Assembly: GCA_001929475.1 (NCBI GenBank)
Contig: LXFE01000586.1
Coordinates: 1 to 37,522, forward strand
Source of the DNA: Neolecta irregularis DAH-3
Lineage: Eukaryota
Direction of reading: 5' to 3'
DNA length: 37,522 nucleotides
Of the stretch, positions 1,320-36,900 are shown piece after piece. The stretch's first letter is position 1, and each line of letters opens with the position of its first letter. The position numbers and the translations under genes are program-made. Below the pieces are notes generated by a model that worked only from the letters and a program-made list of their open reading frames with translations, had not been told where the DNA came from and did not search any database.

Positions 1320-4300
1320 ATGCTATCCGCCAAACAAAAAGAGAGACAAGTTCTGCCTACCAATGTTCGACCAAGTACTTCGGAGCCCAATTGAAGAATC
1401 CTGACTTTCTTAGGAAATTACAAATTAACTCTGAACCCCGATTTCAAAGCATTCGATTATGACGGAACTGTTGTCGTTACTCTTGATGTCAATGAGACTA
1501 CCAACACTATCAAATGCAACTCTACGGAAATTCAGATTCACAAAGTCAAGATTGAGCAGAATGGTCATACGTACGGCTTAACTCAATTGGTTCGATTCTG
1601 ATAGTATAGCCAAACTTCCAGCTCGATTACTTTTCTCGATGATGATCAGTCAGCCACATTCACCTTTGATGAAGCCCTCAAACCTGGCTGCGAAGCAAAA
1701 TTAACTATCAAATTCACGGGACAAGTATTCACATTGTTCATATGCATACGCGTTTTAACAATCCTTAGTTAAACGATAAGATGGCCGGTTTCTATCGATC
1801 AAGCTACATCGATAACGTCACTGGGGAGAAGAAATATCTCGCTACAACTCAAATGGAACCGACAGATTGTCGACGGGCATTGCCTTGTTTTGACGAACCT
1901 GCTCTGAAAGCGACCTTTGATGTATCTCTTATTTGTGATAAGAACCTTGTAGCACTTAGTAACATGGATGTCATTGAAGAAAAGGATTCTGAAATCGAAG
2001 GGAAGAAGATCACTACTTTCCGGACTACTCCGTTGATGAGTACATATGTATTGGCTTCAGTTAATAATGACTGACGACTTAGCTTCTGGCATTTATTGTT
2101 GGTGATCTCAAATATGTGGAAACCTTTACTTCTGGAGAGCATGGAAAACCAATTCCCGTTCGGGTTTATGCTACTGCAGGCTATGAAAAGCAATCTCGGT
2201 TTGCTCTTGATCTCGCTGCCAAGACTCTTGATTTCTTTTCTGAAATCTTCGGAATTGTATATCCTCTACCAAAATTGGATAACGTCGCAATTCCAGACTT
2301 CTCGTAACTCTCTAGAGATTGCTCGTGTGACTGTTTAGCGCTGGAGCCATGGAGAACTGGGGTTTAGTTACCTATCGAGTCGTTGATCTTCTTTATGATG
2401 AGGATAAAGCTTCTGCTGCCACTAAGCAGCGAGTGGCAGAGGTTGTTCAACATGAACTCGCCCATCAATGGTTCGGAAACCTTGTAACTATGGAGTTTTG
2501 GGACGGCCTTTGGCTGAACGAAGGATTTGCGACCTGGATGAGTTGGTTCAGTTGCAATAAGTTTTTTCCAGAGTGGCGGGTATGGGAGAGTTATGTGACA
2601 GATAACCTACAGCAAGCTTTGAGACTTGATGGTATGTGTTGTTGTGTATCAGGTTTTTACTTTACAGCACTGAGAAGTTCTCATCCCATACAGGCGGAAG
2701 TCTTTCGCGCAGACGAGATTAATCAGGCAGAGTCCTTGTGAATAAGCTCATTGCTTATTATTAGATTTTTGATGCGATCTCCTACTCCAAAGGATCATGC
2801 GCTATTCGAATGGTTTCCGTATATCTCGGCGAAGATGTCTTTCTTGCAGGTATCCGCAGATATCTCAAAAAACATGCATATGGAAATACCAAGACATCTG
2901 ATCTCTGGGATGCGCTTTCCTTGGAAAGCGGTAAGGATATCTCCAGAGTCATGAGTATCTGGACGATGAACGTTGGATTTCCAGTCATCACTGTCACTGA
3001 AGACTCAAACTCTATCAAACTTCGACAAACCCGATTCTTATCGACAGGAGATGTTAAAGAAGAAGATGACACAGTTCTATACTGGGTTCCTCTCGCAATG
3101 ATAAATAACGATACTTCAAGCCATCATATCGAGAGTTTCTCTGAGAAAGAAGTCACAATCCCTATATTAGACCTCGAATTCTACAAGTTGAATCTTGCTC
3201 ATAGCGGAATTTATCGAACCAATTATCCTCCAGAACGCCTCCAGAAGCTTGGGCAAGCTGGTAAGCGAGGCCTTTTGAATGCTGAAGATCGCGCTGGTCT
3301 CGTCGCTGATGCTGGGGCTCTATCAGCGAGTGGTCATTCGAACACTAGCTACTTTTTAAATCTCGTCTCCCAATGGACTGAGGAATCAGAATTCGTGTAC
3401 GTTGGTATCTAAACTTTTTCATGATATACTAGTGTTTGGGGAGAAATGCTCGCTCGAATTGGCGCAATTAAAGATGCGTGGGGTTTCCAATCTCCAGAGA
3501 TCGTTCGAGCACTAGAGAAACTGACAATTGCTCTGACTGGTCCGAAGGCCAAGTCTCTCGGATGGGAATTTTCAAAAGACGAAGACCATATCAGTGCACA
3601 ATTCAAAGCTCTACTGTTTGGTGTTTCTGGTATGGCAGGTGACCCGGAGATTGTCAAGGCTGCTCAGGATATGTTTGAAAAATTCGTTTCCGGCCAACAA
3701 TCTGCGATACATCCGAATATCAGAGGGTATTACTATCTCATCCTGTGGAATACTGACGTGATAGATCCGTGTATAGTATTGTTCTGAAGAATGGAGGGGA
3801 AAAGGAATGGAATGAAGTCCTTAATATCTACAAGAACCCTTCAAGCATCGATGAGAAAAACATAGCCCTCCGATCTTTGGGACAAACTCGAAAATTAGAA
3901 TTGATCAAGAAAACATTAGATCTTGCCTTGTCGGAAGATGTCCGGGAGCAAGATATCTATCTACCATTCCAAGGGTATCTTTTTGACCATCACAGTCTTT
4001 TGCACTAAACATCAAGTGTGCGATCCCATGCCAAGGGAATAAAACAACTTTGGGAGTTTGTACAGATCAAATGGGATACCATTGCTGGTCGACTTCCACC
4101 AGGCCTGTCCATGCTGTCGACAGTGGTTCAACTCTGTACTATAGGCTTCTGCAGCGATGACGCTATAAAAGACATCAAGGCATTTTTTTCCACTAAGAGT
4201 ACCAAGGGTTTCAATCAAGGGCTTCAGCAGAGTCTAGATAGTATCCAAGCGAAGGCCTCATGGGTTAAGCGAGACGGGGAGGACGTGCGAGCTTGGTTGC

Positions 4301-22022: not shown

Positions 22023-25000
22023 TCACAATGTATTCGAGGCCGTTGGTTGAGAATCTTCACTTTCCGCTGGAAGACTGAATCCCCACTCAAGTATCTTCCA
22101 CCTACTCTGTTCTGCAACCCAAGGTTTCATTTCACCCAGAACTGCAATACTTGCTTGTTCACTTTGGTCAATAAGAAACTTTTGAGCAGCTTCTTGAATA
22201 TCATTTGCGGTAACACCCAAAAGCCGCTCTCTTCTCCTGAAAGGTCAGCCATTTACCTCAGGAGTCATGCCTCTGCCTCATGTCGTATGTGATCCCATCA
22301 ACAAATTGAATCATTCCCTCCTGATTGACACTGATAGGGGCATCGATTTTCTGGAAAACACTTAGCTTGCTTTCCTCTAACTCCCGCTTCGTCCAATCTT
22401 TATGGATTGCCCATTTACCTGATTCCTTCATTATCGTTAAGCTATTTCTAGCATCTGGGTCGCGGTAGGAATAAAACCCCAAGATACCGCCTTGGCCACT
22501 ATAAGAGGCACCACCACCATACGCACCTCCCTTCTCGCGAATTTCGCGGTGCAGATGGCGGTGAGTTAAAAGATTTGAGAGAATCTGTAGTGAAGGACCC
22601 AAATGATGTGTATAAGGTACACCTCTAAGACATAGAGCTGTGTAATTTACAGAGAAAGGGAATGGAAAGAAAGCATTTTGGGACGGAACTGCTAGCGGTG
22701 CTGATGAAAGTGTAGTAGATAAGGAAGCTATTTGATTCGGGAACGATTTGAGGAATTTGGATAACTCAGCAGAGTTTGATTTTATAGACTCGTCAGCACA
22801 CGTAATCGCTGTTCGAACGGACGATTTCTGGAACACAATTCGAGATATTTCCTAACTGTCAAGCCAACTTTCCAAAAATAAAAGACACTTTTAATTTCGC
22901 GATTGTTTCCGAAAGATCATGCATTCCAGCCAACTGAGTCATAAATTTCATCTGTGTCATACCTCCTTGAACTTCGGTAGCCCTCTTCCATTAACTTGAA
23001 TCACGGATAGACATACGGCACCAGGGGTCAAACATGAACTCGCAAATGCTCGGGCAAATTTGTGGCCGCTTGCAGCAATATTATTAACAGCATCAGAGGC
23101 ATTTCCTCTGATCAAACTTTGTAGCTTTTCGACATTATCAAAATTCGTTTGAAAAAGGAGGATTTGTAGAAGGTTGAACATATGGTGAACATTATGATCT
23201 AGGCAGTGTCCAGAAATTGTTAATCCTTCCTCAATTTGATCGAGATCTACAAAGTTAATGGCTTTGGTGAGCAAGAGTACTTGAATGATTGGTAGCAACC
23301 AATGTTCCAACTCGTAATCCGCCGGTTTTCAATCTTATTTCACCCTCCAGTTCACCCATTGATCGCTCCTTCGTTCCAAGATTCGTAATACACTCTGCAA
23401 ATAAGGGTAGATATATCTTCAGATCATCGGGTATGTTTTTTAATGTATTGACAGCCCGAAAATAAGTAAGTCCATTCGTCCCAGTGACGCGCCACTGAAC
23501 ATCTATGTCTTCAATTTTTCCAAATTCAAGTTTCGTTTTCTCCTTAAATTTTTGGATATCCGTGACGTTTAGGGTAGGCAAGCAGTCAACAATCTCTTGC
23601 GCTTCTTGTTGTTCGAGTAATTCAACTCCCTGTTTACCAATTGCCGTTAGATCTTCGGAATTTAGCGACCCGATCTGCTTTGATAAACGTTCTTTCTCTT
23701 CCTGGACGATGGCATCAGTGAGGGATGAACTGGGTCTCATGGTAAAGATCAACTGCGACTGATTTTGAAGGAAATACTCCTCAATCAACCCTTCAAAATA
23801 TCCACCTTTTGCAACTTCCCTTTTGAAACTATCGAGAGTTTCGTTCCATGACAAAATTGAAAAAGGATCAACTTGGTTGAACCATCCGGGCAGGATGCTA
23901 TACATAATACCCATACCAAAATGTGCAGTTTTCTACAAAGTTAGAGATCACGCATGACAGCGAAACAAAACACACATGTTTTAATCCCAGCTCCAGTTGG
24001 TGTAACACTCCTTCAATTTTCTTCACCTCGAATCCCTTTTCCCTCACCTCTCGCAAAACCTCAAATATTTTCTCATGAACAGCAGTTTCGTTTCCCTCCT
24101 GGACGCCTTGAAGGCCAATTGAAAACACGGCCGTCTTGGTACTCGAATCATAGCCTGTGTTAGGTGACCAATCGCTTCCCAGGCCTGTATCGATGAGAGC
24201 TTGATACATCGGCGAGGAATGTCCATCAGTAAGAAGATGTGACAGGATTTTCAAAGAGAAAGTCTTAAAAGTATCCGTCGTATCGTTTGCGAGGAAAGAA
24301 AGGGAAATTTTGAGCTGCTTTTTGGGATCTGACACTGGAAAAAGTTAATCACCAATAGATATAGGGAAAAACTTGGATCAACTGGAAAAATGCTCTCGAC
24401 AGCTCTAGGCCCGTCAAATCTTTTGACTTCTTTCTGGGCAGGGATAGGATCGATTTGTGAAAAGTTTTTAATCTTAAGATTAGCAGCCTGCAGATGATCT
24501 TCAATCTCGAAATTTCCATAGGTCAAAACCTTCGAATTGCTTGGATGATAATATCTTTTATGGAAATCGACGAGGTTTTTCCAAGTTAATGTAGTAATAT
24601 ATTTCGGATCTCCTCCACTGTCATTTTCATAGATGGTATTTCTATACATGTTCTTTTGAAAGTCGACATAGAAGAGATACGAAGAGTCAGACTCGATATT
24701 AGTCTCAGCGAGGAATAACAGATACTTGTTGGCCTTTCATCTCGTTATAGACAACGCCTTTGAAGACGAGGGGTGTAGAAGTGTCTCTGAGTCAGGTCAG
24801 CTTGGATGAAGAGAGCACCTCTAGGATTTTCATGCTCAAGCCTCCAGCCCTCCTGCCGAAAATCCAGCTGCTTAAGATTTGGAAAAAACACAGAGTCTAG
24901 ATAAACATCCTGAAGGTTCGCATAGTCTACAGCATTCGTGGTTGCGAAGGGGTAAAAAGTGTGATCACTCGCTGCTCTTAGGATGTGTAGCAGAAGGCAG

Positions 25001-29820: not shown

Positions 29821-31488
29821 ATGGCTTCCTCGACCATTCTTTTCTCAGATAGCCCTGAAAATAACCTCCTTCGGCCACCAGGCTATGATCACTCAGCCCG
29901 AAATTATATCCGTGATTCAGTAAGTTATTCACCTCTTCCAGCTCTCCGCGATTCCTTGATTCTGAAAGAACGAAACTATCGCCAACAATATGCAAACATA
30001 TACTTTCTGCGGCTCGCAAACCTAAAGCCAATTATCGAGGAGAGAGCGAAAAACGAATGGGGAGGGATCGAAGTCGATGGTCACAAGGCGAGTTTTGTAG
30101 AACGAGTTCTTGATGTTAAACAAGGCGAGCTCTGTTGGATTATCGGAACGGTGTATATGGATATGCCTTTAAAGCCTAATATCTTAGAAGACATATCGAA
30201 AGATGTATTATTATTTTTCCAGCCCAACAGATGGCTAATTGGATAGCATTGGGTCGCTGCACCTGTTCCTCGGGCGAAATATACATCTAAACAGGATTTG
30301 GTCATGCTAGAAGATGAATCTGGACGCGTGACATTTTCCGGACTTAGAATCTCCCAAGAGAAACTGGTTACTGGCTGTGTTATCGGTGTTCTTGGAACAG
30401 AAACGCCCGATGGAGAATTCGATGTTGTAGATATATGCTATCCGGAGATGCCGCCTCAGAAGAAAAGAGACGTAATGGGTACTTGCTTGTTTCTAGGACG
30501 AGAAATTGATTTCTAGACGACAGCACATCTAGATATGTTGTTCTTGCATCAGGATTACATATGAGTGGGGAGATTCATGAATCGATGAACACGTGTTTGC
30601 TGCTTGAATACCTTACAGGAGAACTTTGTGGAGCGAACGTATCTTGTCTCATTATGGCATATTCTTACAATCGAGGATGCAGATCTTTCTTCTCGTATTG
30701 TGAGGCTAATTCTTGCCGGAAATTCCCTAGCAGATCAACGACCAGTCCACGACGAGAATTCTGTTAAACAAAGAGTATATTCCCACTAACAATACATACT
30801 GACAATTCAGAAAAAATATGGCTATGACGCATCCCTTTACAACTCCAGACCGACAGAATCGCTCGACTCCTTCCTTTCTGATTTATGTCCCCATTTAAAT
30901 GTCGACATGATGCCCGGTCCAAGCGATCCAGCGAACGTAACGCTTCCGCAACAACCAGTCCATACAGCGATGTTCCCCACTGCAAAAGCATTCCTTGGGA
31001 GTTCATTTCAGAGTGTTACAAACCCATATTGGTGTGAGATAGAGGATGTTATTTTTTTGGGTACAAGTGGACAAACTATTGACGACGTCTACAAGTATGT
31101 TGAGGGGGAGGATAAATTGACGATGATGGAAATGAGTTTACGCTGGAGACACTATGCTCCGACTGCTCCAGATACTCTTTGTATACTTATCTCTCCCTCT
31201 CCTTATGTTGATAATAGGGTGTTACCCATTTCAAGATCAAGATCCATTTCTACTAGAGAATACCCCACATGTATATTTCCTCGGAAATCAAGAAAAATTT
31301 GAAACAAGATTAGTCGAGGGTACGTCAATCTTTTATCATCCAAATTAACCCAAGGCCATGACGGTCAAAGAACACGATTAATAGCTGTTCCAAAATTTTC
31401 AGAAACAGGAACTGTAGTCCTCCTCAACCTCTCGACGTTAGGTTGTGAGCCATTAACCTTTTCCTTACCTAAACGTACCTTCCCATAG
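29821..31488 (+). CDS. POL31: DNA polymerase delta small (B) subunit, multi-exon
   Basis: QQYANIYFLRL, GTVYMDMPLKPNIL, LEDESGRV, LILAGNS, MPGPSDPANVTLPQQP, GTSGQTIDD, WRHYAPTAPDTL, CYPFQDQDPF, PHVYFLGNQ, VPKFSETG; stop at 31486-31488. Confidence 0.95.
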
Positions 31489-33425
31489 GAGCCATCGCCG
31501 TAAACAGATTCATCGGTTTTCTACTTTGCTTGCCGTATTCCAAGTCTGTTCCAACCTTTGCTTTGGCGATCACCCTATTTTCGAGAGGAACGTCAAGTGC
31601 GTTGAGTGTGTCGGTCATTTTGTTGGGCATGATTGGTAATAGCCATATTGCTGAAATTCTTATGGCTTCAACTGCGTGATAAATAATTGATTCTTTTAAC
31701 ATTGCATCAGTTTTTAATGTCCAAGGTTCAGTTTCTTGGAGATACTTATTTGCCTTGCTATGAGCTTCATTTTTAGGAGATGACTTACGGCCAGAAAAAT
31801 TCGAGAAGCTAGATAGATATATTGCGATATATCTCCTTCTTTCATTGCTTTTGGACACATCTTTGCTGCTTTGTTGATCACTGAGAGCAAATGTATACCT
31901 GAATTTCCGATCGGCGAGATTTTTCGTGTTCGCGCAAGCTCCAGTGAGGTGGGTATATTAAATGTCGTCGAGAATACTCTGCATATCAAGTTTCCGAACT
32001 TACCCATCAACTGTTTTCTGTTGGTCGTCAACATACTATCTGTCGAAAAATCTACCAGTTGATTATATTGTTGAATGACGGGACATGCCTGAATCTCGCC
32101 CAAGCTTTCCTGCCTCCATTAAATAATATCTCACAGCGTCAATATCGACATATTCAACCAGTTTCAATGGATCAACCACATTTCCTCTACTTTTCGACAT
32201 TTTCATGTTATTCATCATCCAGTGAGAGTGAGTCAAGATTTTCTTCGGAGGCTGCATTCCCAAGGCTAGCAAAAAGGCAGGCCAATGAATACAATGGAAT
32301 CTTCTCATCAGCTTCCTAAAGAGCAAAAAGATACCTCGTGATATCTTTGCCGACGACATGGATATCAGCTGGCCATTCGGTTATCCCTCCAGGATACCCC
32401 AGGCACGAAATATAATTTATTAATGCATCCAACCAAACGTAAATTGTATGCTCTTCATCTCCAGGAACCGGAATTCCCCAGCTTAATCGGCTTGTCGGGC
32501 GCGATATGCTTAGATCATCTAATCCAGAGCGTACGCTCTCGATTATCTCTTGGTATCTGCTGTCTGGGAGAACAAAGTTGGGGTTCTGGTCATAGAATTC
32601 AAGCAGTCTATCTTTCATTTTGGAAAGCTTGAAATGGTAATTTGGTTCTGACGTCCAATGAACTTGACTCCCTGATTCCCTTGAAAACTAAAAATTACAT
32701 TTTGAGCAAGGATAAAACATGCTGTTTGAGTGATGTTTGCCGTTGTGTCATGTCGTTCTTCGACTTGCACTTTGGGGTAGAATGTTTCGTCGGAAATCGA
32801 ATACCAGCCTTGATGGTTTGCTTTATATATATACCCCTTTTTGTAGAGTTCGTTCTAGATATGAGGAAATACAAGGAACTGGCGGGTACCCAGAAATGTT
32901 GCACGGAAGTTTTGTGACGGGAATCCGTTGTTCTATTGAAATGTTGACAATCTACATGGGCAAACTCGAGGAGATTCTGGGGTCACTTTTGTGATCGTAG
33001 AAGGACGGTACTTTGAACTTTTCTGAACCCTTGTCGCAAAATATTTTCGTGGGAATTCCGGCCGCAGTTGCTGCTTGATAGACCTGATGTCGGATCAATT
33101 GTGTTCATGTCCCATAGGTACTTTTAAACCATACTCGTCTGTTCCAGTCGACAGAATTGCTTTTCTTCCGTTCAGCCTTTGGAATCGAGCAATAACATCA
33201 GCTGTTATCAGAGAATATAGATGGCCTATATGAGGTTCTTATTGGTCAGAGTCGGCTATTTTGGGGTACCTTTCCTCCATTGACATAAAATATTGGAGTT
33301 GTTATATAAAATGGTTTTTGTTGTAAATCCGTGGAACTTGAACGCCTGCCAAGACATGACTTGCAAGTCCATGATCTTTTGGATAACAAGGGAGTGATTC
33401 TGGGAAAATTCCGGGAAACCAGCAT
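31469..33425 (-). CDS. MSM1: Mitochondrial methionyl-tRNA synthetase, multi-exon
   Basis: Presequence MLVSRNFPRITPLLSKR; ITTPIFYVNGEPHIGH (HIGH), TGTDEYGLK, GWYSISDE, DLSISRP, WGIPVP, IYVWLDALINY, GKDITRFH, KMSKSRGNVVDP. Confidence 0.95.
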
Positions 33426-33923
33426 TACGATGTTTTATTTTGACAAGGTATGGTGCGCAAAGAAAAATGTTTCCTGCAACACTAGCCATGGGTCACCTTT
33501 TTGCATCTCGACTTAATTTCTACACGAGGATTACTTTTTGCCGATCTACTGAAGGCGGATGAGCATGATTTCTTGGAGGCGACAAAAGGCAGTAGAACTG
33601 AGCATATTGAATGAAGATACCGTCCGCTTTATCTATCCGAGGTCATCACATTACAGTCTTGAATACAGATATCTTGGCGATACTCTCGAGATGACTCCAT
33701 GAACTAATTTCCTCCTCACTGGTCTAACAGGCTGTTGCTAACCTGGGCTGAGCACCCTCACAATCAAAATTCAAGCGTTTATTGGATACATATTCTTCAA
33801 TCTTTTCTTCGTCTGTTGATGTGCCTTGTACTTTTCGAATTGTTCGTGTAGCGATGCGTGTTTGATATGGCAGGCATTTTGCATATCGCCTTTCAAGCAA
33901 TTGCCACAAAACTTCCAGTCGAC

Positions 33924-36900
33924 ATGCCACTTGTACTTTCAAAGAATCCGGCTTTCAAGACCGTGACCGAGTTTGATACGATCTATGGGAACAAGATTAG
34001 TCAATATCGGAGCGAAAATACCGGGTTACAAATCGTAGTTGTTGATGTGGAGGGCCCAGTCATCTCATGCCATTCGGTACTTGCTACTGAGAGTATGTAC
34101 CTCATTCGCTTCAATTGGCTGATGCAGGCAGTTTCCGATGACTCTGGATGTCCACATACTCTTGAACATTTGGTATTCCTCGGCAGTACTAAATATCCGT
34201 ACAAGGGAATTCTCGATCTGCTTGCAAACCGGGCGTTTGCGCAAGGAACGAATGCTTGGACAGCAGTTGATCATACGGCATACCACATCAAAAGTGTCAG
34301 CGAGGACGGCTTTCTTCGGATACTGCCAATCTACCTCGACCACATTCTATTTCCAACTCTAGAAGAAAGCGCGTTTACCACAGAGGTGTACCATATGAAT
34401 GGTTCTGGCGAAGATGCTGGTGTTGTATTCTCAGAGATGCAGGGAAGAGAGAATACGAGTGTCTCTCTGATGGCCGCCGCGTATGCCGCTGTGTTTTAAA
34501 TTCTTATCCTAGAAATCAGCGGGCATTGTATCCTGAGGGAAATGGCTATCGGAGCCAAACAGGTGGCTTGATGGAAGCGCTTGGAAAGCTCGACAATGAG
34601 ACGATCCGGGCTTTCCATAAAAAGGCCTATGTTTCTCGAAACTTGTCTGTAATCGTGATTGGAAAGTTGGATCATTCGCAACTTTTACAAGCTGTGCAAC
34701 CTCTGGATGAAGAATTAGCAAAGCGGTTTCCTCTTGGAGAGAATTACAAGAGGTGCGTTTGTTCAAGCAGCCGCTTATAATAGACCTTGGGTTGATTCTG
34801 CACCCACCGAGGATCTCGCGACTTCAGTTTTAAGAACGGTCGAGTTCCCGGACAGGGATGAAAGCATGGGTGACGTAAGAATTGGATGGTTTGGACCATC
34901 GGTATGGGTGTGTACTCATTCTCGATCGACGCTTATTATTTAGGATATCCAGGAAATAGCCGCTATTGATATGTTGGGGGTTTATCTCTGCAATTCTCCG
35001 ATTGCTCCTCTCAGGAAGGCATTCATTGAGATTAGACAACCCCTTTGCACAGGTGATATCGAAAATAAAGTTGCTAACTCAAGGCATCTCACTCCATACT
35101 ACCGAACGACTCAAATCCGAGATCACTTGTCAATTCAAATCTGTACCTTTTGATATGATAGATTTAGTAGAGTCAAAGTTCTTTCAAGTCTTAAATGATA
35201 TTTCCATTGACCTAGTTCGTATGAAGATGTTGATTGAGAAACAGATATTGAAGGCAGGATCTCGTTTGAACCTAGCTAACTGTAGAATTACGATGCAGCT
35301 GAAGTTGATCCATACGCAGGATTCAACTATGCCATAATTACTGCATTCGTGTACGGTGATACAGAAGGAAAAGATCTCAAGAGATATCTCGAGGATCTCA
35401 AAGCGTTTGAACATCTTTTTTCGTGGACGGAGGAACAATGGGCCGGCTGCATTAACAAGTATGTCGCGTTTACCTGTCTGCTAACTCCCAGATGGCTTAT
35501 TGAAGCGCCGCATGTGGCGATTCTCGGAAAACCGTCAGCGGTTATGGCCGATCGGCTAGTGGAAGATAATGCCGCTCGTGTTAAAGACCGGGTTGAGCAA
35601 TTGGGAAAGCAAAAACTCGAACAACTTCAAAAGAAAGTAGACGATGCGCAAGCCCTGAACGAACGACCTGTTCCGGATAAAATACTTGAAGATTTCAAGA
35701 TCCCTGGTATTGACTCGATCCGGTTTGTTGACATTGAAACGGCAAGAGTGGGGCTCGCTAGACTTGACGGAATCTTGTATTTTCAATTCTGAATGATCTA
35801 ACCCCAGCGACAATTCAACTCAAAAAGCACTAGATTCTATGTCTAGTGGTCTGTGGATGCAACTGGACAGTATTGAAACCAATATTTAGAGCTGACCGCA
35901 GACATCAAATCGCAATTCTTCAATATCTCACTTCATTTGTCGACCGCGAATTTCACGCACAAGCAACGGCTTTACAGTTCTTTATTCCTGTATAATATAT
36001 TTGTAAATCCTGTGAAACGAAACGACGGCACGACGCTCGATTGGATGCAAGTCGTTGAGCAACTGGATCAGAATACAGTGAATTACAGTGCTTCCTTTGG
36101 CGTAGCCAATGGATTCAAAGATTTGATGACGATAAAGTTCAAGGTTGATGTATGCAGTTTTGCAACGAATTACTAATTTGAGAAAACCAAGTACAAGGAA
36201 GCGGTTGAATGGATGTACGATATTATCAAGGTAAATTTGACAGAGATATAATTAACCTGTAGGGAACGATTTTTGACCCTGCGAGGCATGCGCTTATCTG
36301 GGCAATCTAACGATGCAGAGTCGGTGTTACGTTGTCAAAAATGCTAAACGATTTACCCTCTCAAGCGCGAAACGGGAGCGGAATGAACTGGGCTCTGTAT
36401 CATCATTTGATCTTTGATGAAGAGTCTACAGCAAAAGCAGTAAATCTTGCGACTCTGGCCAAATTCCTCCCTCAAGTCGAAAAAGTCCTGCAGGAAAACC
36501 CAGCAGAGGTCATCCAGATGCTCGAGGGAATTCAACAACTAGGTATGTATTTGAAAGTTTATATTGACGTCAGTTTGCCGGCCGGAGAATCTTCGGGTTC
36601 ATATTGTTGGACCGGTGTTGTTCCAAGATCCTGTTGCCCCGTGGAATCGATTTTCACCATGTGCTACAGATATAACTCCAATCCGATACGCGCGCGATCT
36701 GCTCTCGCCGATTGGCCGCAATCCGTGTCGATACGCGACTATTCTGGCGCTTCCAAGCATTGAATCATGCTTCTCTATCCATTTTTCTCGGGGACCGCAG
36801 GACTACAACGACCCTGATCTTGCGCCGCTGCAGGTTTTGATTGAATATCTCAGTCTTCTCGAAGGAGAATTCTGGAAGAAGATTCGAGGTGCGGGGTTGG

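What the first reader, a model, noticed from the sequence alone, without database searches (positions are those of the whole stretch)
33238..33274. Apparently obligatory GA-AG intron immediately before the HIGH motif of mitochondrial MetRS
Seen: the minus strand reads GTC AAT GGA G|GAAAGGTACC...CTGACCAATAAG|AA CCT CAT ATA GGC CAT. Removing this 37-nt GA-AG intron gives YVNGEPHIGH, the class-I synthetase signature at normal spacing. The nearby GT (AAG|GTACC) puts HIGH out of frame, and read-through hits TGA. Known: GA donors are very rare for U2-type spliceosomes. Inference: this spliceosome tolerates A at +2 (GAAAGG resembles GTAAGG) in a gene needed for mitochondrial translation.
Basis: partly seen in the sequence, partly recalled or inferred. 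Interest (0 to 1): 0.8.

Follow-up and report, generated by a model that had tools for sequence, protein, structure and literature searches.

The report
Real GA-AG intron in fungal MetRS
A 37-base intron that begins with GA instead of the near-universal GT is really spliced out of a fungal mitochondrial methionyl-tRNA synthetase gene; it is a rare but known kind of exception, in a genome that seems unusually tolerant of such exceptions.

Summary
On the minus strand, 33274..33238 is a 37-nt intron, gag|GAAAGG...CTGACCAATAAG|aa. Intron-less, cDNA-like contigs of public run X2 skip exactly these 37 bases. An independent re-assembly of genomic run X1 (depth about 410) reproduces the window without a difference, so the A at +2 is not an assembly error.

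Removing the eight transcript-confirmed introns gives a 556-aa mitochondrial-type MetRS with HIGH and KMSKS motifs. It aligns without gaps to homologues.

In 36 of 80 related loci an intron sits at the same codon position and phase. All 25 distinct copies are GT-AG. The GA donor is therefore a derived T-to-A change in an ancient intron.

The window matches a Neolecta irregularis contig. Of 34 supported introns (31-44 nt, median 35), 28 are GT, 5 GC and 1 GA. Non-GT donors carry exonic AG far more often than GT donors. Public gene models are garbled at the GC-AG introns, and no public protein found holds the HIGH exon.

GA-AG introns are already known, in fungi at about 0.04%. This is a new member of a known kind, of moderate interest.

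The parts
33238..33274 (-). Intron 1 of the MetRS gene: 37 nt, GA-AG, phase 1, splitting the Glu codon G|AA just before Pro-His of HIGH.
   Evidence: X2 cDNA-like contig skips 33238-33274. Sequence. Orthologous intron position in 36 of 80 loci.
33269..33274 (-). Non-canonical 5' splice site GAAAGG, preceded by exonic GAG (33277-33275).
   Evidence: It matches CAG|GTAAGT at 6 of 8 positions outside +2, second best of 34 donors.
33264..33269 (-). Unused canonical-looking donor aag|GTACCC, 5 nt downstream of the GA. Its use would give ...GGKNLI* (frameshift, early stop).
   Evidence: No joint from this site appears in X2 contigs, but contigs drop rare forms.
33245..33249 (-). Putative branch site CTGAC. 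The branch A is at 33246, 8 nt before the last intron base.
   Evidence: Sequence motif only. Of 34 supported introns, 33 have a xTxAY motif 4-11 nt from the 3' end.
31469..33425 (-). Mitochondrial-type methionyl-tRNA synthetase CDS: 9 exons, 556 aa, ATG at 33425-33423, stop at 31471-31469.
   Evidence: Pfam PF09334 and PF19303 match the exons.
33221..33232 (-). HIGH motif codons, residues 53-56 of the spliced protein.
32189..32203 (-). KMSKS motif codons, residues 337-341.
33084..33121 (-). Intron 2: 38 nt, GT-AG, donor aaa|GTACCT.
   Evidence: X2 joint (cut +2).
32977..33011 (-). Intron 3: 35 nt, GT-AG, donor aaa|GTACCG.
   Evidence: X2 joint.
32855..32889 (-). Intron 4: 35 nt, GT-AG, donor tgg|GTACCC.
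   Evidence: X2 joint.
32688..32722 (-). Intron 5: 35 nt, GC-AG, donor aca|GCATGT.
   Evidence: X2 joint. Orthologous introns in L012 and L035 begin GT.
32301..32334 (-). Intron 6: 34 nt, GT-AG.
   Evidence: X2 joint.
32052..32088 (-). Intron 7: 37 nt, GC-AG, donor cag|GCATGT.
   Evidence: X2 joint.
31754..31788 (-). Intron 8: 35 nt, GT-AG, donor gcc|GTAAGT.
   Evidence: X2 joint (cut +1).

Best explanation
Positions 33274..33238 (minus strand) are a genuine, constitutively used spliceosomal (U2-type) intron with a GA-AG boundary. It lies in the nuclear gene for the mitochondrial-type methionyl-tRNA synthetase of a Neolecta irregularis-like ascomycete. It is an ancient intron, shared in position and phase with other Ascomycota. 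Its donor changed from G|GT to G|GA in this lineage and is still cut at the same phosphodiester bond.

Inferred mechanism: the loss of U at +2 is offset by an otherwise strong donor. That donor has exonic AG at -2/-1, G+1, and A+3, A+4, G+5, which can pair with U1, U5 and U6. The intron also has a good CTGAC branch site 8 nt from the 3' AG, and the very short, tightly spaced architecture (about 35 nt) typical of this genome. The spliceosome of this genome appears generally lax at +2, since GC donors are frequent.

Shown: exact removal of the 37 nt in mature RNA, A at +2 in genomic DNA, and an intact 556-aa MetRS reading frame after splicing. Inferred: U2-type chemistry, compensation by the flanking consensus, and the essential role of the gene in mitochondrial translation.
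For::
- X2 contig 4 skips 33238-33274. On the plus strand the ends read CT..TC, which is GA..AG on the gene strand.
- The same contig removes 7 other MetRS introns and 2 introns of the convergent gene, with 0 mismatches.
- X2 depth in bin 33144-33277 is 48.2, which equals 66.6 x 97/134. So no X2 contig covers the intron.
- X1 genomic contig (depth 410) is identical to the window.

removing the 8 introns gives one 556-aa ORF with YVNGEPHIGH and KMSKS. It is gapless against 7 homologues at junction 1.

homologues have N-x-x-P-H spacing.

80 related loci:
- 36 have an intron after 'aat gcN g|' at the same position and phase (25 distinct sequences, all GT-AG, 49-69 nt).
- 36 have no intron there.
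- In 8 the motifs were not found.

- Exonic AG occurs in 5 of 6 non-GT donors against 5 of 28 GT donors (Fisher p = 0.0047).
- The GA donor matches the consensus at 6 of 8 positions outside +2.

known GA donors in Eurytemora and Oikopleura have obligate exonic AG and A at +3, as here.

34 supported introns, 31-44 nt, with branch-like motifs 4-11 nt from the 3' end.
Against: - X2 is recorded as 'DNA?' with no library description. That it derives from RNA is inferred from the exact removal of 14 introns in two convergent genes.
- X1 and X2 come from one study and are probably the same material as the assembly, so they are not independent of the window's source.
- Contigs hide minor isoforms. The share of transcripts using the GA site, the GT 5 nt downstream, or retaining the intron is unknown.
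- The joint can be placed in three registers (GA..AG, GG..AA, AG..TA). GA-AG is chosen from the AG acceptor and from orthology.
- The compensation argument uses the general CAG|GTAAGT consensus, which I recalled. This organism's own U1 was not available.
- Only one GA donor was found among 34 introns, so a general tolerance of A at +2 is not shown.
Confidence: 0.9

Rival explanations
1. GT-assisted selection. U1 first docks on the canonical-looking aag|GTACCC five bases downstream (33269). That site resembles three real donors of the same gene. The cut site is then set upstream at the GA when U5 and U6 take over. This would resemble the human FGFR GA donors, which depend on a nearby GT. Transcripts cut at the GT would be frameshifted and removed by nonsense-mediated decay.
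For: GTACC donors start introns 2, 3 and 4 of this gene. The downstream site matches the consensus at 5 of 9 positions. Introns of 31-32 nt exist in this genome, so a 32-nt GT-AG intron is sterically possible. Frey and Pucker describe the FGFR GA site as dependent on a canonical site 6 nt away (passage). Erkelenz et al. list 3 human GA sites at -4 and +6 from a primary GT (passage).
Against: No X2 contig shows the GT junction, although contigs drop rare forms. In FGFR the GT lies upstream of the GA; here it lies downstream, at a different distance. GA donors in Eurytemora and Oikopleura need no neighbouring GT. Outside +2, the GA site itself matches the consensus better than the GT site (6 of 8 against 4 of 8 positions; one search gives 5 of 9 for the GT site with +2 counted).
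Confidence: 0.2
2. Assembly or sequencing error: the true genomic donor is GT, or a base is missing or extra nearby.
For: A single-base error is the commonest cause of apparent non-canonical splice sites in draft genomes (general knowledge).
Against: Logan's independent re-assembly of run X1 at depth about 410 covers 31000-33759 with 0 other letters and 0 gaps. The 118 nt or more of exon on each side are identical in X2. An error inside the intron could not change the frame problem (sequence logic).
Confidence: 0.02
3. The junction is an artefact: reverse-transcriptase template switching, or an assembler jump in the X2 contig.
For: The two ends share 2 nt ('both' = 2). Frey and Pucker list template switching as a possible source of GA-AG calls.
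Against: Two shared bases are too few for efficient switching. The contig at depth 66.6 is the only X2 form, and no X2 contig covers the intron. The junction restores the frame and the canonical N-x-x-P-H spacing. It coincides to the base with an intron position conserved in 36 of 80 related loci.
Confidence: 0.02
4. The gene is a decaying pseudogene, or the frame is restored at translation by frameshifting or ribosomal bypass rather than by splicing.
For: None beyond the broken genomic frame.
Against: The mature transcript lacks the 37 nt. After splicing the whole 556-aa frame is open, with HIGH and KMSKS, and it aligns along its length to homologues.
Confidence: 0.02
5. It is a U12-type (minor spliceosome) intron.
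For: Minor-class introns tolerate non-GT ends (general knowledge).
Against: The donor GAAAGGTACC and the branch region GACTCTGACC do not resemble the recalled U12 consensus (RTATCCTT, TCCTTAAC). The branch and 3' end look like those of the other 33 introns.
Confidence: 0.01

Closest known systems
GA-AG (and GG-AG) introns of the copepod Eurytemora affinis and the tunicate Oikopleura dioica
   Same: U2-type introns with G then A at the donor and AG at the acceptor. They carry obligate exonic AG at -2/-1 and A at +3, and are used constitutively in conserved genes. Sources: Robertson 2017, PMC5714493, part 1 of 2 of the full text read, through most of the Results and Discussion; Frey and Pucker 2020, PMC7072748, passages. 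This donor is gag|GAA.
   Different: In those animals GA donors are 3-12% of introns, and many of the introns are recently gained. Here 1 of 34 supported introns is GA, and that intron is ancient and has changed its donor. Intron length here is about 35 nt.
[quoted passage not shown] 2003, EMBO J)
   Same: An efficiently used GA donor lying a few bases from a canonical GT.
   Different: FGFR: GT 6 nt upstream, alternative splicing. Here: GT 5 nt downstream, and GA is the only form seen. The paper itself is not held. I saw only how PMC7072748 and PMC5714493 describe it, and its entry in the reference list of PMC6280755.
Rare GA-AG junctions reported in fungal transcriptome annotations
   Same: The same dinucleotide pair in fungi. 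Ganoderma lingzhi has 35 GA-AG junctions, 0.038% (PMC11590231, table passage). Fusarium graminearum lists GA-AG among the 0.31% 'other' sites of 2604 introns (PMC3577648, passage).
   Different: Those are bulk counts without gene-level or evolutionary context. Here the intron is obligatory for an essential-type enzyme, and GT orthologues are identified.
GC-AG introns (the major non-canonical class)
   Same: A change at +2 tolerated by the major spliceosome and compensated by a stronger flanking consensus. F. graminearum GC donors are also flanked by AG. Here 4 of 5 GC donors and the GA donor have exonic AG.
   Different: C at +2 is tolerated in about 1% of introns in most eukaryotes. A at +2 is about 25-50 times rarer in the fungal data cited (0.038% against 1.85% in G. 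lingzhi).

Membership tests
Spliceosomal GA-AG (U2-type non-canonical) intron | The sequence is exactly absent from mature RNA but present in genomic DNA. | tested here: met
   X2 contig skips 33238-33274. X1 genomic contig contains it.
Spliceosomal GA-AG (U2-type non-canonical) intron | Intron begins with G-A and ends with A-G. | tested here: met
   There is a 2-nt register ambiguity. It is resolved by the AG acceptor and by 25 of 25 distinct orthologous introns cut after the same G.
Spliceosomal GA-AG (U2-type non-canonical) intron | Context typical of GA donors: exonic AG at -2/-1 and A at +3. | tested here: met
   The donor is gag|GAAAGG. The rule comes from PMC5714493 and PMC7072748.
Spliceosomal GA-AG (U2-type non-canonical) intron | Branch-site motif at the distance from the 3' splice site usual for the host genome. 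| tested here: met
   CTGAC has its A 8 nt from the intron end. Of 34 supported introns, 33 have xTxAY at 4-11 nt. This is a motif match only.
Spliceosomal GA-AG (U2-type non-canonical) intron | Lariat formation and dependence on U1, U2, U5 and U6. | not testable with these tools
   No raw reads, no genome and no snRNA gene in the window.
U12-type (minor) intron | Donor RTATCCTT and branch TCCTTAAC (consensus recalled). | tested here: not met
   The donor is GAAAGGTA and the branch region is GACTCTGACC.
Class I methionyl-tRNA synthetase, mitochondrial/bacterial type | Catalytic domain PF09334 and anticodon-binding domain PF19303. | tested here: met
   Exon translations hit PF09334 (E 3e-12 to 3e-22) and PF19303 (E 5e-8). 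Best full-length relatives are named mitochondrial MetRS of Ascomycota.
Class I methionyl-tRNA synthetase, mitochondrial/bacterial type | HIGH and KMSKS signatures at normal spacing. | tested here: met
   PHIGH is at residues 52-56 and KMSKS at 337-341 of the spliced protein.
Class I methionyl-tRNA synthetase, mitochondrial/bacterial type | Mitochondrial import and aminoacylation activity. | not testable with these tools
   There is an N-terminal 35-residue extension rich in R, S and K. This is inference only.

The most novel reading that the evidence does not exclude
The major spliceosome of Neolecta irregularis has genome-wide relaxed recognition of donor position +2. Roughly one donor in seven would be GC and a few per cent GA. 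This would be coupled to an ultrashort (about 35 nt) intron architecture with the branch point hard against the 3' splice site. It would be the first fungal counterpart of the Eurytemora/Oikopleura condition. It would also mean that a sizeable part of the public gene set of this 'living fossil' ascomycete is mis-modelled at non-GT introns.
Probability: 0.35. Interest if true: 0.65.

Novelty: new member of a known kind. Interest (0 to 1): 0.45.

Why it matters
A-at-+2 donors are usually considered dead ends for splicing. Here one is the only way to make an enzyme of the kind needed for mitochondrial translation. Its GT-bearing orthologues are at hand, so the evolutionary step (T to A at +2 in an ancient intron) is explicit.

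Practically, GT/GC-only gene callers miss or garble such genes:
- No protein holding this gene's HIGH exon was found in a 5.8-billion-protein collection.
- Two neighbouring public models are wrong exactly at GC-AG introns.

If the high rate of non-GT donors holds genome-wide, Neolecta offers a natural system for studying how very short introns and strong flanking signals relax the +2 requirement. My searches found no paper on Neolecta splice sites. The main text of the genome paper has no occurrence of 'intron' or 'splic'. Its supplements could not be seen and may hold intron statistics.

Tried and rejected
- No RNA holder listed. Only two runs were offered, both as contigs.
- No whole genome is held, so U1, U5, U6 and Prp8 could not be examined.
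- The Rfam scan of the window gave 0 matches.
- The metagenome scan for close relatives found nothing above 62% identity. No sister-species copy of the intron could be compared, and the loci served only for intron-position comparison.
- My ab initio gene finder is crude. It recovered 6 of 14 transcript-confirmed introns exactly and missed the 5' half of MetRS. It predicted 58 introns (5 GC, 0 GA). I used it only as a starting model for genes then checked against homologues.
- Two 'ORF-rescue' scans for further non-GT introns were uninformative. Dinucleotides that cannot be donors gave 6-16 hits, the same range as GC (14) and GA (13). None of the supported non-GT introns passed the filters. No further GA candidate is claimed.
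- A sixth GC-AG candidate in the presequence-protease gene (22237-22270, or 22234-22270) stays unresolved. The upstream exon aligns to human PreP 831-964. The downstream 69 aa found no solved relative.
- RNA folding of 33310..33215 showed no unusual structure (z = 0.44), so a structural explanation for avoiding the GT was dropped.
- Brackenridge et al. 2003 is not held.
- One literature query failed on syntax and was replaced.

Full report
WHAT IS THERE

On the minus strand the window reads ...TAT GTC AAT GGA G|GAAAGGTACCCCAAAATAGCCGACTCTGACCAATAAG|AA CCT CAT ATA GGC CAT.... The upstream frame encodes KPFYITTPIFYVNG and runs into TGA. The downstream frame, shifted by one base, encodes EPHIGHLYSL....

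Pfam places the downstream piece at positions 14-53 of the class I MetRS catalytic-domain profile PF09334. It places other exons in PF09334 and in the MetRS anticodon-binding domain PF19303. The best full-length relatives are mitochondrial MetRS of Ascomycota, at about 60% identity. Those relatives have exactly two residues between the Asn of YVN and Pro-His. Only removal of the 37 nt 33274..33238 reproduces that spacing.

One search enumerated all 268 single deletions that keep the frame open and PHIGH in frame. Only three are GT-AG or GC-AG of 30 nt or more, and all three delete the conserved TTPIFYVN strand. The GT five bases downstream (33269) gives ...GGKNLI*, and read-through gives ...GGKVPQNSRL*.

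DIRECT EVIDENCE

Two public runs hold the stretch, both kept as contigs and both from one study.

Run X1 behaves as genomic DNA. A 4626-nt contig at depth about 410 covers 31000-33759 with no difference and no gap. So the A at +2 (33273) survives an independent re-assembly.

Run X2 is recorded as 'DNA?', but its contigs lack every intron.
- Within 31000-35000 it shows 14 joints of 31-39 nt.
- Eight are in MetRS, two are in the convergent upstream gene, and four are in the downstream M16 peptidase gene.
- One of them skips exactly 33238-33274. On the plus strand the ends read CT..TC, which is GA..AG on the gene strand.
- That joint has 118 matching bases on the shorter side and a 2-nt placement ambiguity.
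- The contig's own coordinates leave 407 letters between 32687 and 33275. That is 587 genomic bases minus the five introns (180), so no extra letters are hidden at the joints.
- X2 depth in the bin holding the intron is 48.2, which equals 66.6 x 97/134. So no X2 contig covers the intron.

I read X2 as a transcriptome. One contig runs through two convergent genes, each spliced in its own orientation, which a retro-copy could not do.

Limits of this evidence: both runs probably derive from the same material as the assembly, and contigs cannot show minor isoforms.

THE GENE

Removing the eight confirmed introns gives one open frame from ATG 33425 to the stop at 31471-31469. It encodes 556 aa.
- The N-terminus is a basic, Ser-rich extension.
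- PHIGH is at residues 52-56 and KMSKS at 337-341.
- It aligns without a gap to seven homologues at junction 1.

THE INTRON IS OLD; ITS DONOR IS DERIVED

A scan of metagenome contigs returned 80 loci encoding relatives at 52-62% identity.
- In 36 of them the YVNxxPHxGH motif is contiguous.
- In 8 the motifs were not found.
- In 36 (25 distinct sequences, 11 duplicates) an intron of 49-69 nt interrupts the gene after 'aat gcN g|'. That is the same codon position and phase as here.
- All 25 distinct copies are GT-AG.

This fixes the register of the joint at GA-AG. It also shows that the Neolecta-type donor g|GAAAGG descends from a g|GTAAG-like donor by a change at +2.

The same holds for the GC-AG intron 5. 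Its counterparts in L012 and L035 begin atg|GTATAA and acg|GTATGT, against aca|GCATGT here.

THE GENOMIC SETTING

A public protein named Aminopeptidase 2 [Neolecta irregularis DAH-3] is 99% identical to a window exon. It sits on a contig of 37522 bases, the length of the window.

I checked my models of that gene and of the M16 peptidase gene against homologues. That adds 20 introns supported by gapless alignment to the 14 seen in X2. The 34 supported introns are 31-44 nt long (median 35). Of them, 33 have a xTxAY motif 4-11 nt from the 3' end.

Donors are 28 GT, 5 GC and 1 GA.
- Leaving out the flagged GA intron, 5 GC of 33 is far above the 1.3% non-GT-AG reported for fungi. The binomial p is 6.5e-5. 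With transcript-confirmed introns only, it is 2 of 13, p = 0.012 (the rate is from PMC7072748, passages).
- Non-GT donors have exonic AG in 5 of 6 cases, against 5 of 28 GT donors (Fisher p = 0.0047).
- The GA donor matches CAG|GTAAGT at 6 of 8 positions outside +2, second best of the 34.

These counts come from one 37-kb window chosen because of the GA intron. The consensus used is the general one, which I recalled, not this organism's U1.

CONSEQUENCES FOR ANNOTATION

- The public aminopeptidase model is garbled exactly at the GC-AG intron 2727-2764.
- The 97%-identical M16 model retains the transcript-confirmed intron 34093-34131. It also skips or frameshifts the regions around the GC-AG introns 35254-35285 and 36286-36318.
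- No protein of 84-2000 aa in the 5.8-billion-protein collection holds the HIGH exon at more than 74% identity.
- No protein of 217-2000 aa holds the 123-aa exon at more than 64% identity.
- So this MetRS seems absent or truncated in public gene sets.

HOW IT PROBABLY WORKS

The intron has the features reported for GA donors elsewhere: exonic AG, A at +3, and a good branch site. I therefore think the major spliceosome recognises it through the flanking consensus and the tight 35-nt architecture. A at +2 would be tolerated in both catalytic steps. This is inferred, not shown.

A variant model cannot be excluded with contigs. In it, U1 docks on the GTACCC five bases downstream, a sequence that starts three other introns of this gene, and mis-cut transcripts are degraded. 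I give it 0.2.

No local RNA structure stands out (z = 0.44).

COMPARISON WITH WHAT IS KNOWN

GA-AG introns are rare but documented.
- Eurytemora affinis: 3-12% of introns. They are also frequent in Oikopleura dioica.
- Humans: 14 of 222,263 introns, as cited in PMC5714493.
- Ganoderma lingzhi: 35 junctions, 0.038%.
- Fusarium graminearum: listed among rare 'other' sites.

Searches for Neolecta together with 'intron' or 'splice site' found no description of its splice signals. The genome paper's main text contains neither word, and supplements were closed.

The finding is a well-supported new member of a known kind. The more interesting lead is that this genome may be generally lax at +2.

VERDICT

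- Observation: confirmed.
- Interpretation: supported.
- Confidence in a real GA-AG spliceosomal intron: 0.9.
- Novelty: new member of a known kind.
- Interest: 0.45.

Noticed in passing
window 32688-32722 (-) and 32052-32088 (-): Two GC-AG introns (aca|GCATGT and cag|GCATGT) in the same MetRS gene. Both are removed in the X2 cDNA-like contig.
   Followed up: yes
window 2727-2764 (+), 35254-35285 (+), 36286-36318 (+): Three more GC-AG introns, in the aminopeptidase and M16 peptidase genes. They are supported by gapless alignment to homologues. The public models P0121 and P0241 are garbled or skip exons at exactly these places.
   Followed up: yes
window 22234-22279 (-): The last junction of the presequence-protease-like gene has no GT-AG solution. 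The candidates are gag|GCATGA...TTTCAG or ...CAGGAG (34 or 37 nt). The upstream exon aligns to human PreP 831-964. The downstream exon found no solved relative.
   Followed up: partly
whole window; 34 supported introns: Introns are extremely short and uniform (31-44 nt, median 35). A branch-like xTxAY motif lies only 4-11 nt from the 3' AG. I found no paper describing this for Neolecta.
   Followed up: partly
window 33121, 33011, 32889 (-), pseudo-donor 33269 (-), and 37086 (+): Donors beginning GTACC are clustered. Three of the eight MetRS introns, plus the unused site inside intron 1, start this way. Yet GTACC is not enriched in the window as a whole. The reason is unknown.
   Followed up: no
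window 34093-34131 (+) and 2632-2667 (+): These two introns have lengths divisible by three (39 and 36 nt) and no in-frame stop. The first is removed in X2 but kept as coding sequence in the public-like model P0241.
   Followed up: partly
window about 31000-33644: One X2 contig (3454 nt) runs through the 3' part of the plus-strand DNA polymerase delta subunit-like gene and the whole minus-strand MetRS gene. Each gene is spliced in its own sense. So the convergent transcripts overlap at their 3' ends, or are merged by the assembler.
   Followed up: no
L012, L026, L035 and other loci against the spliced MetRS: Several further intron positions of this gene (after residues about 89, 142, 186, 303 and 462) coincide with breaks in tblastn matches to other ascomycete loci. 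Most of its eight introns may therefore be ancestral. Only intron 1 and intron 5 were checked at base level.
   Followed up: partly
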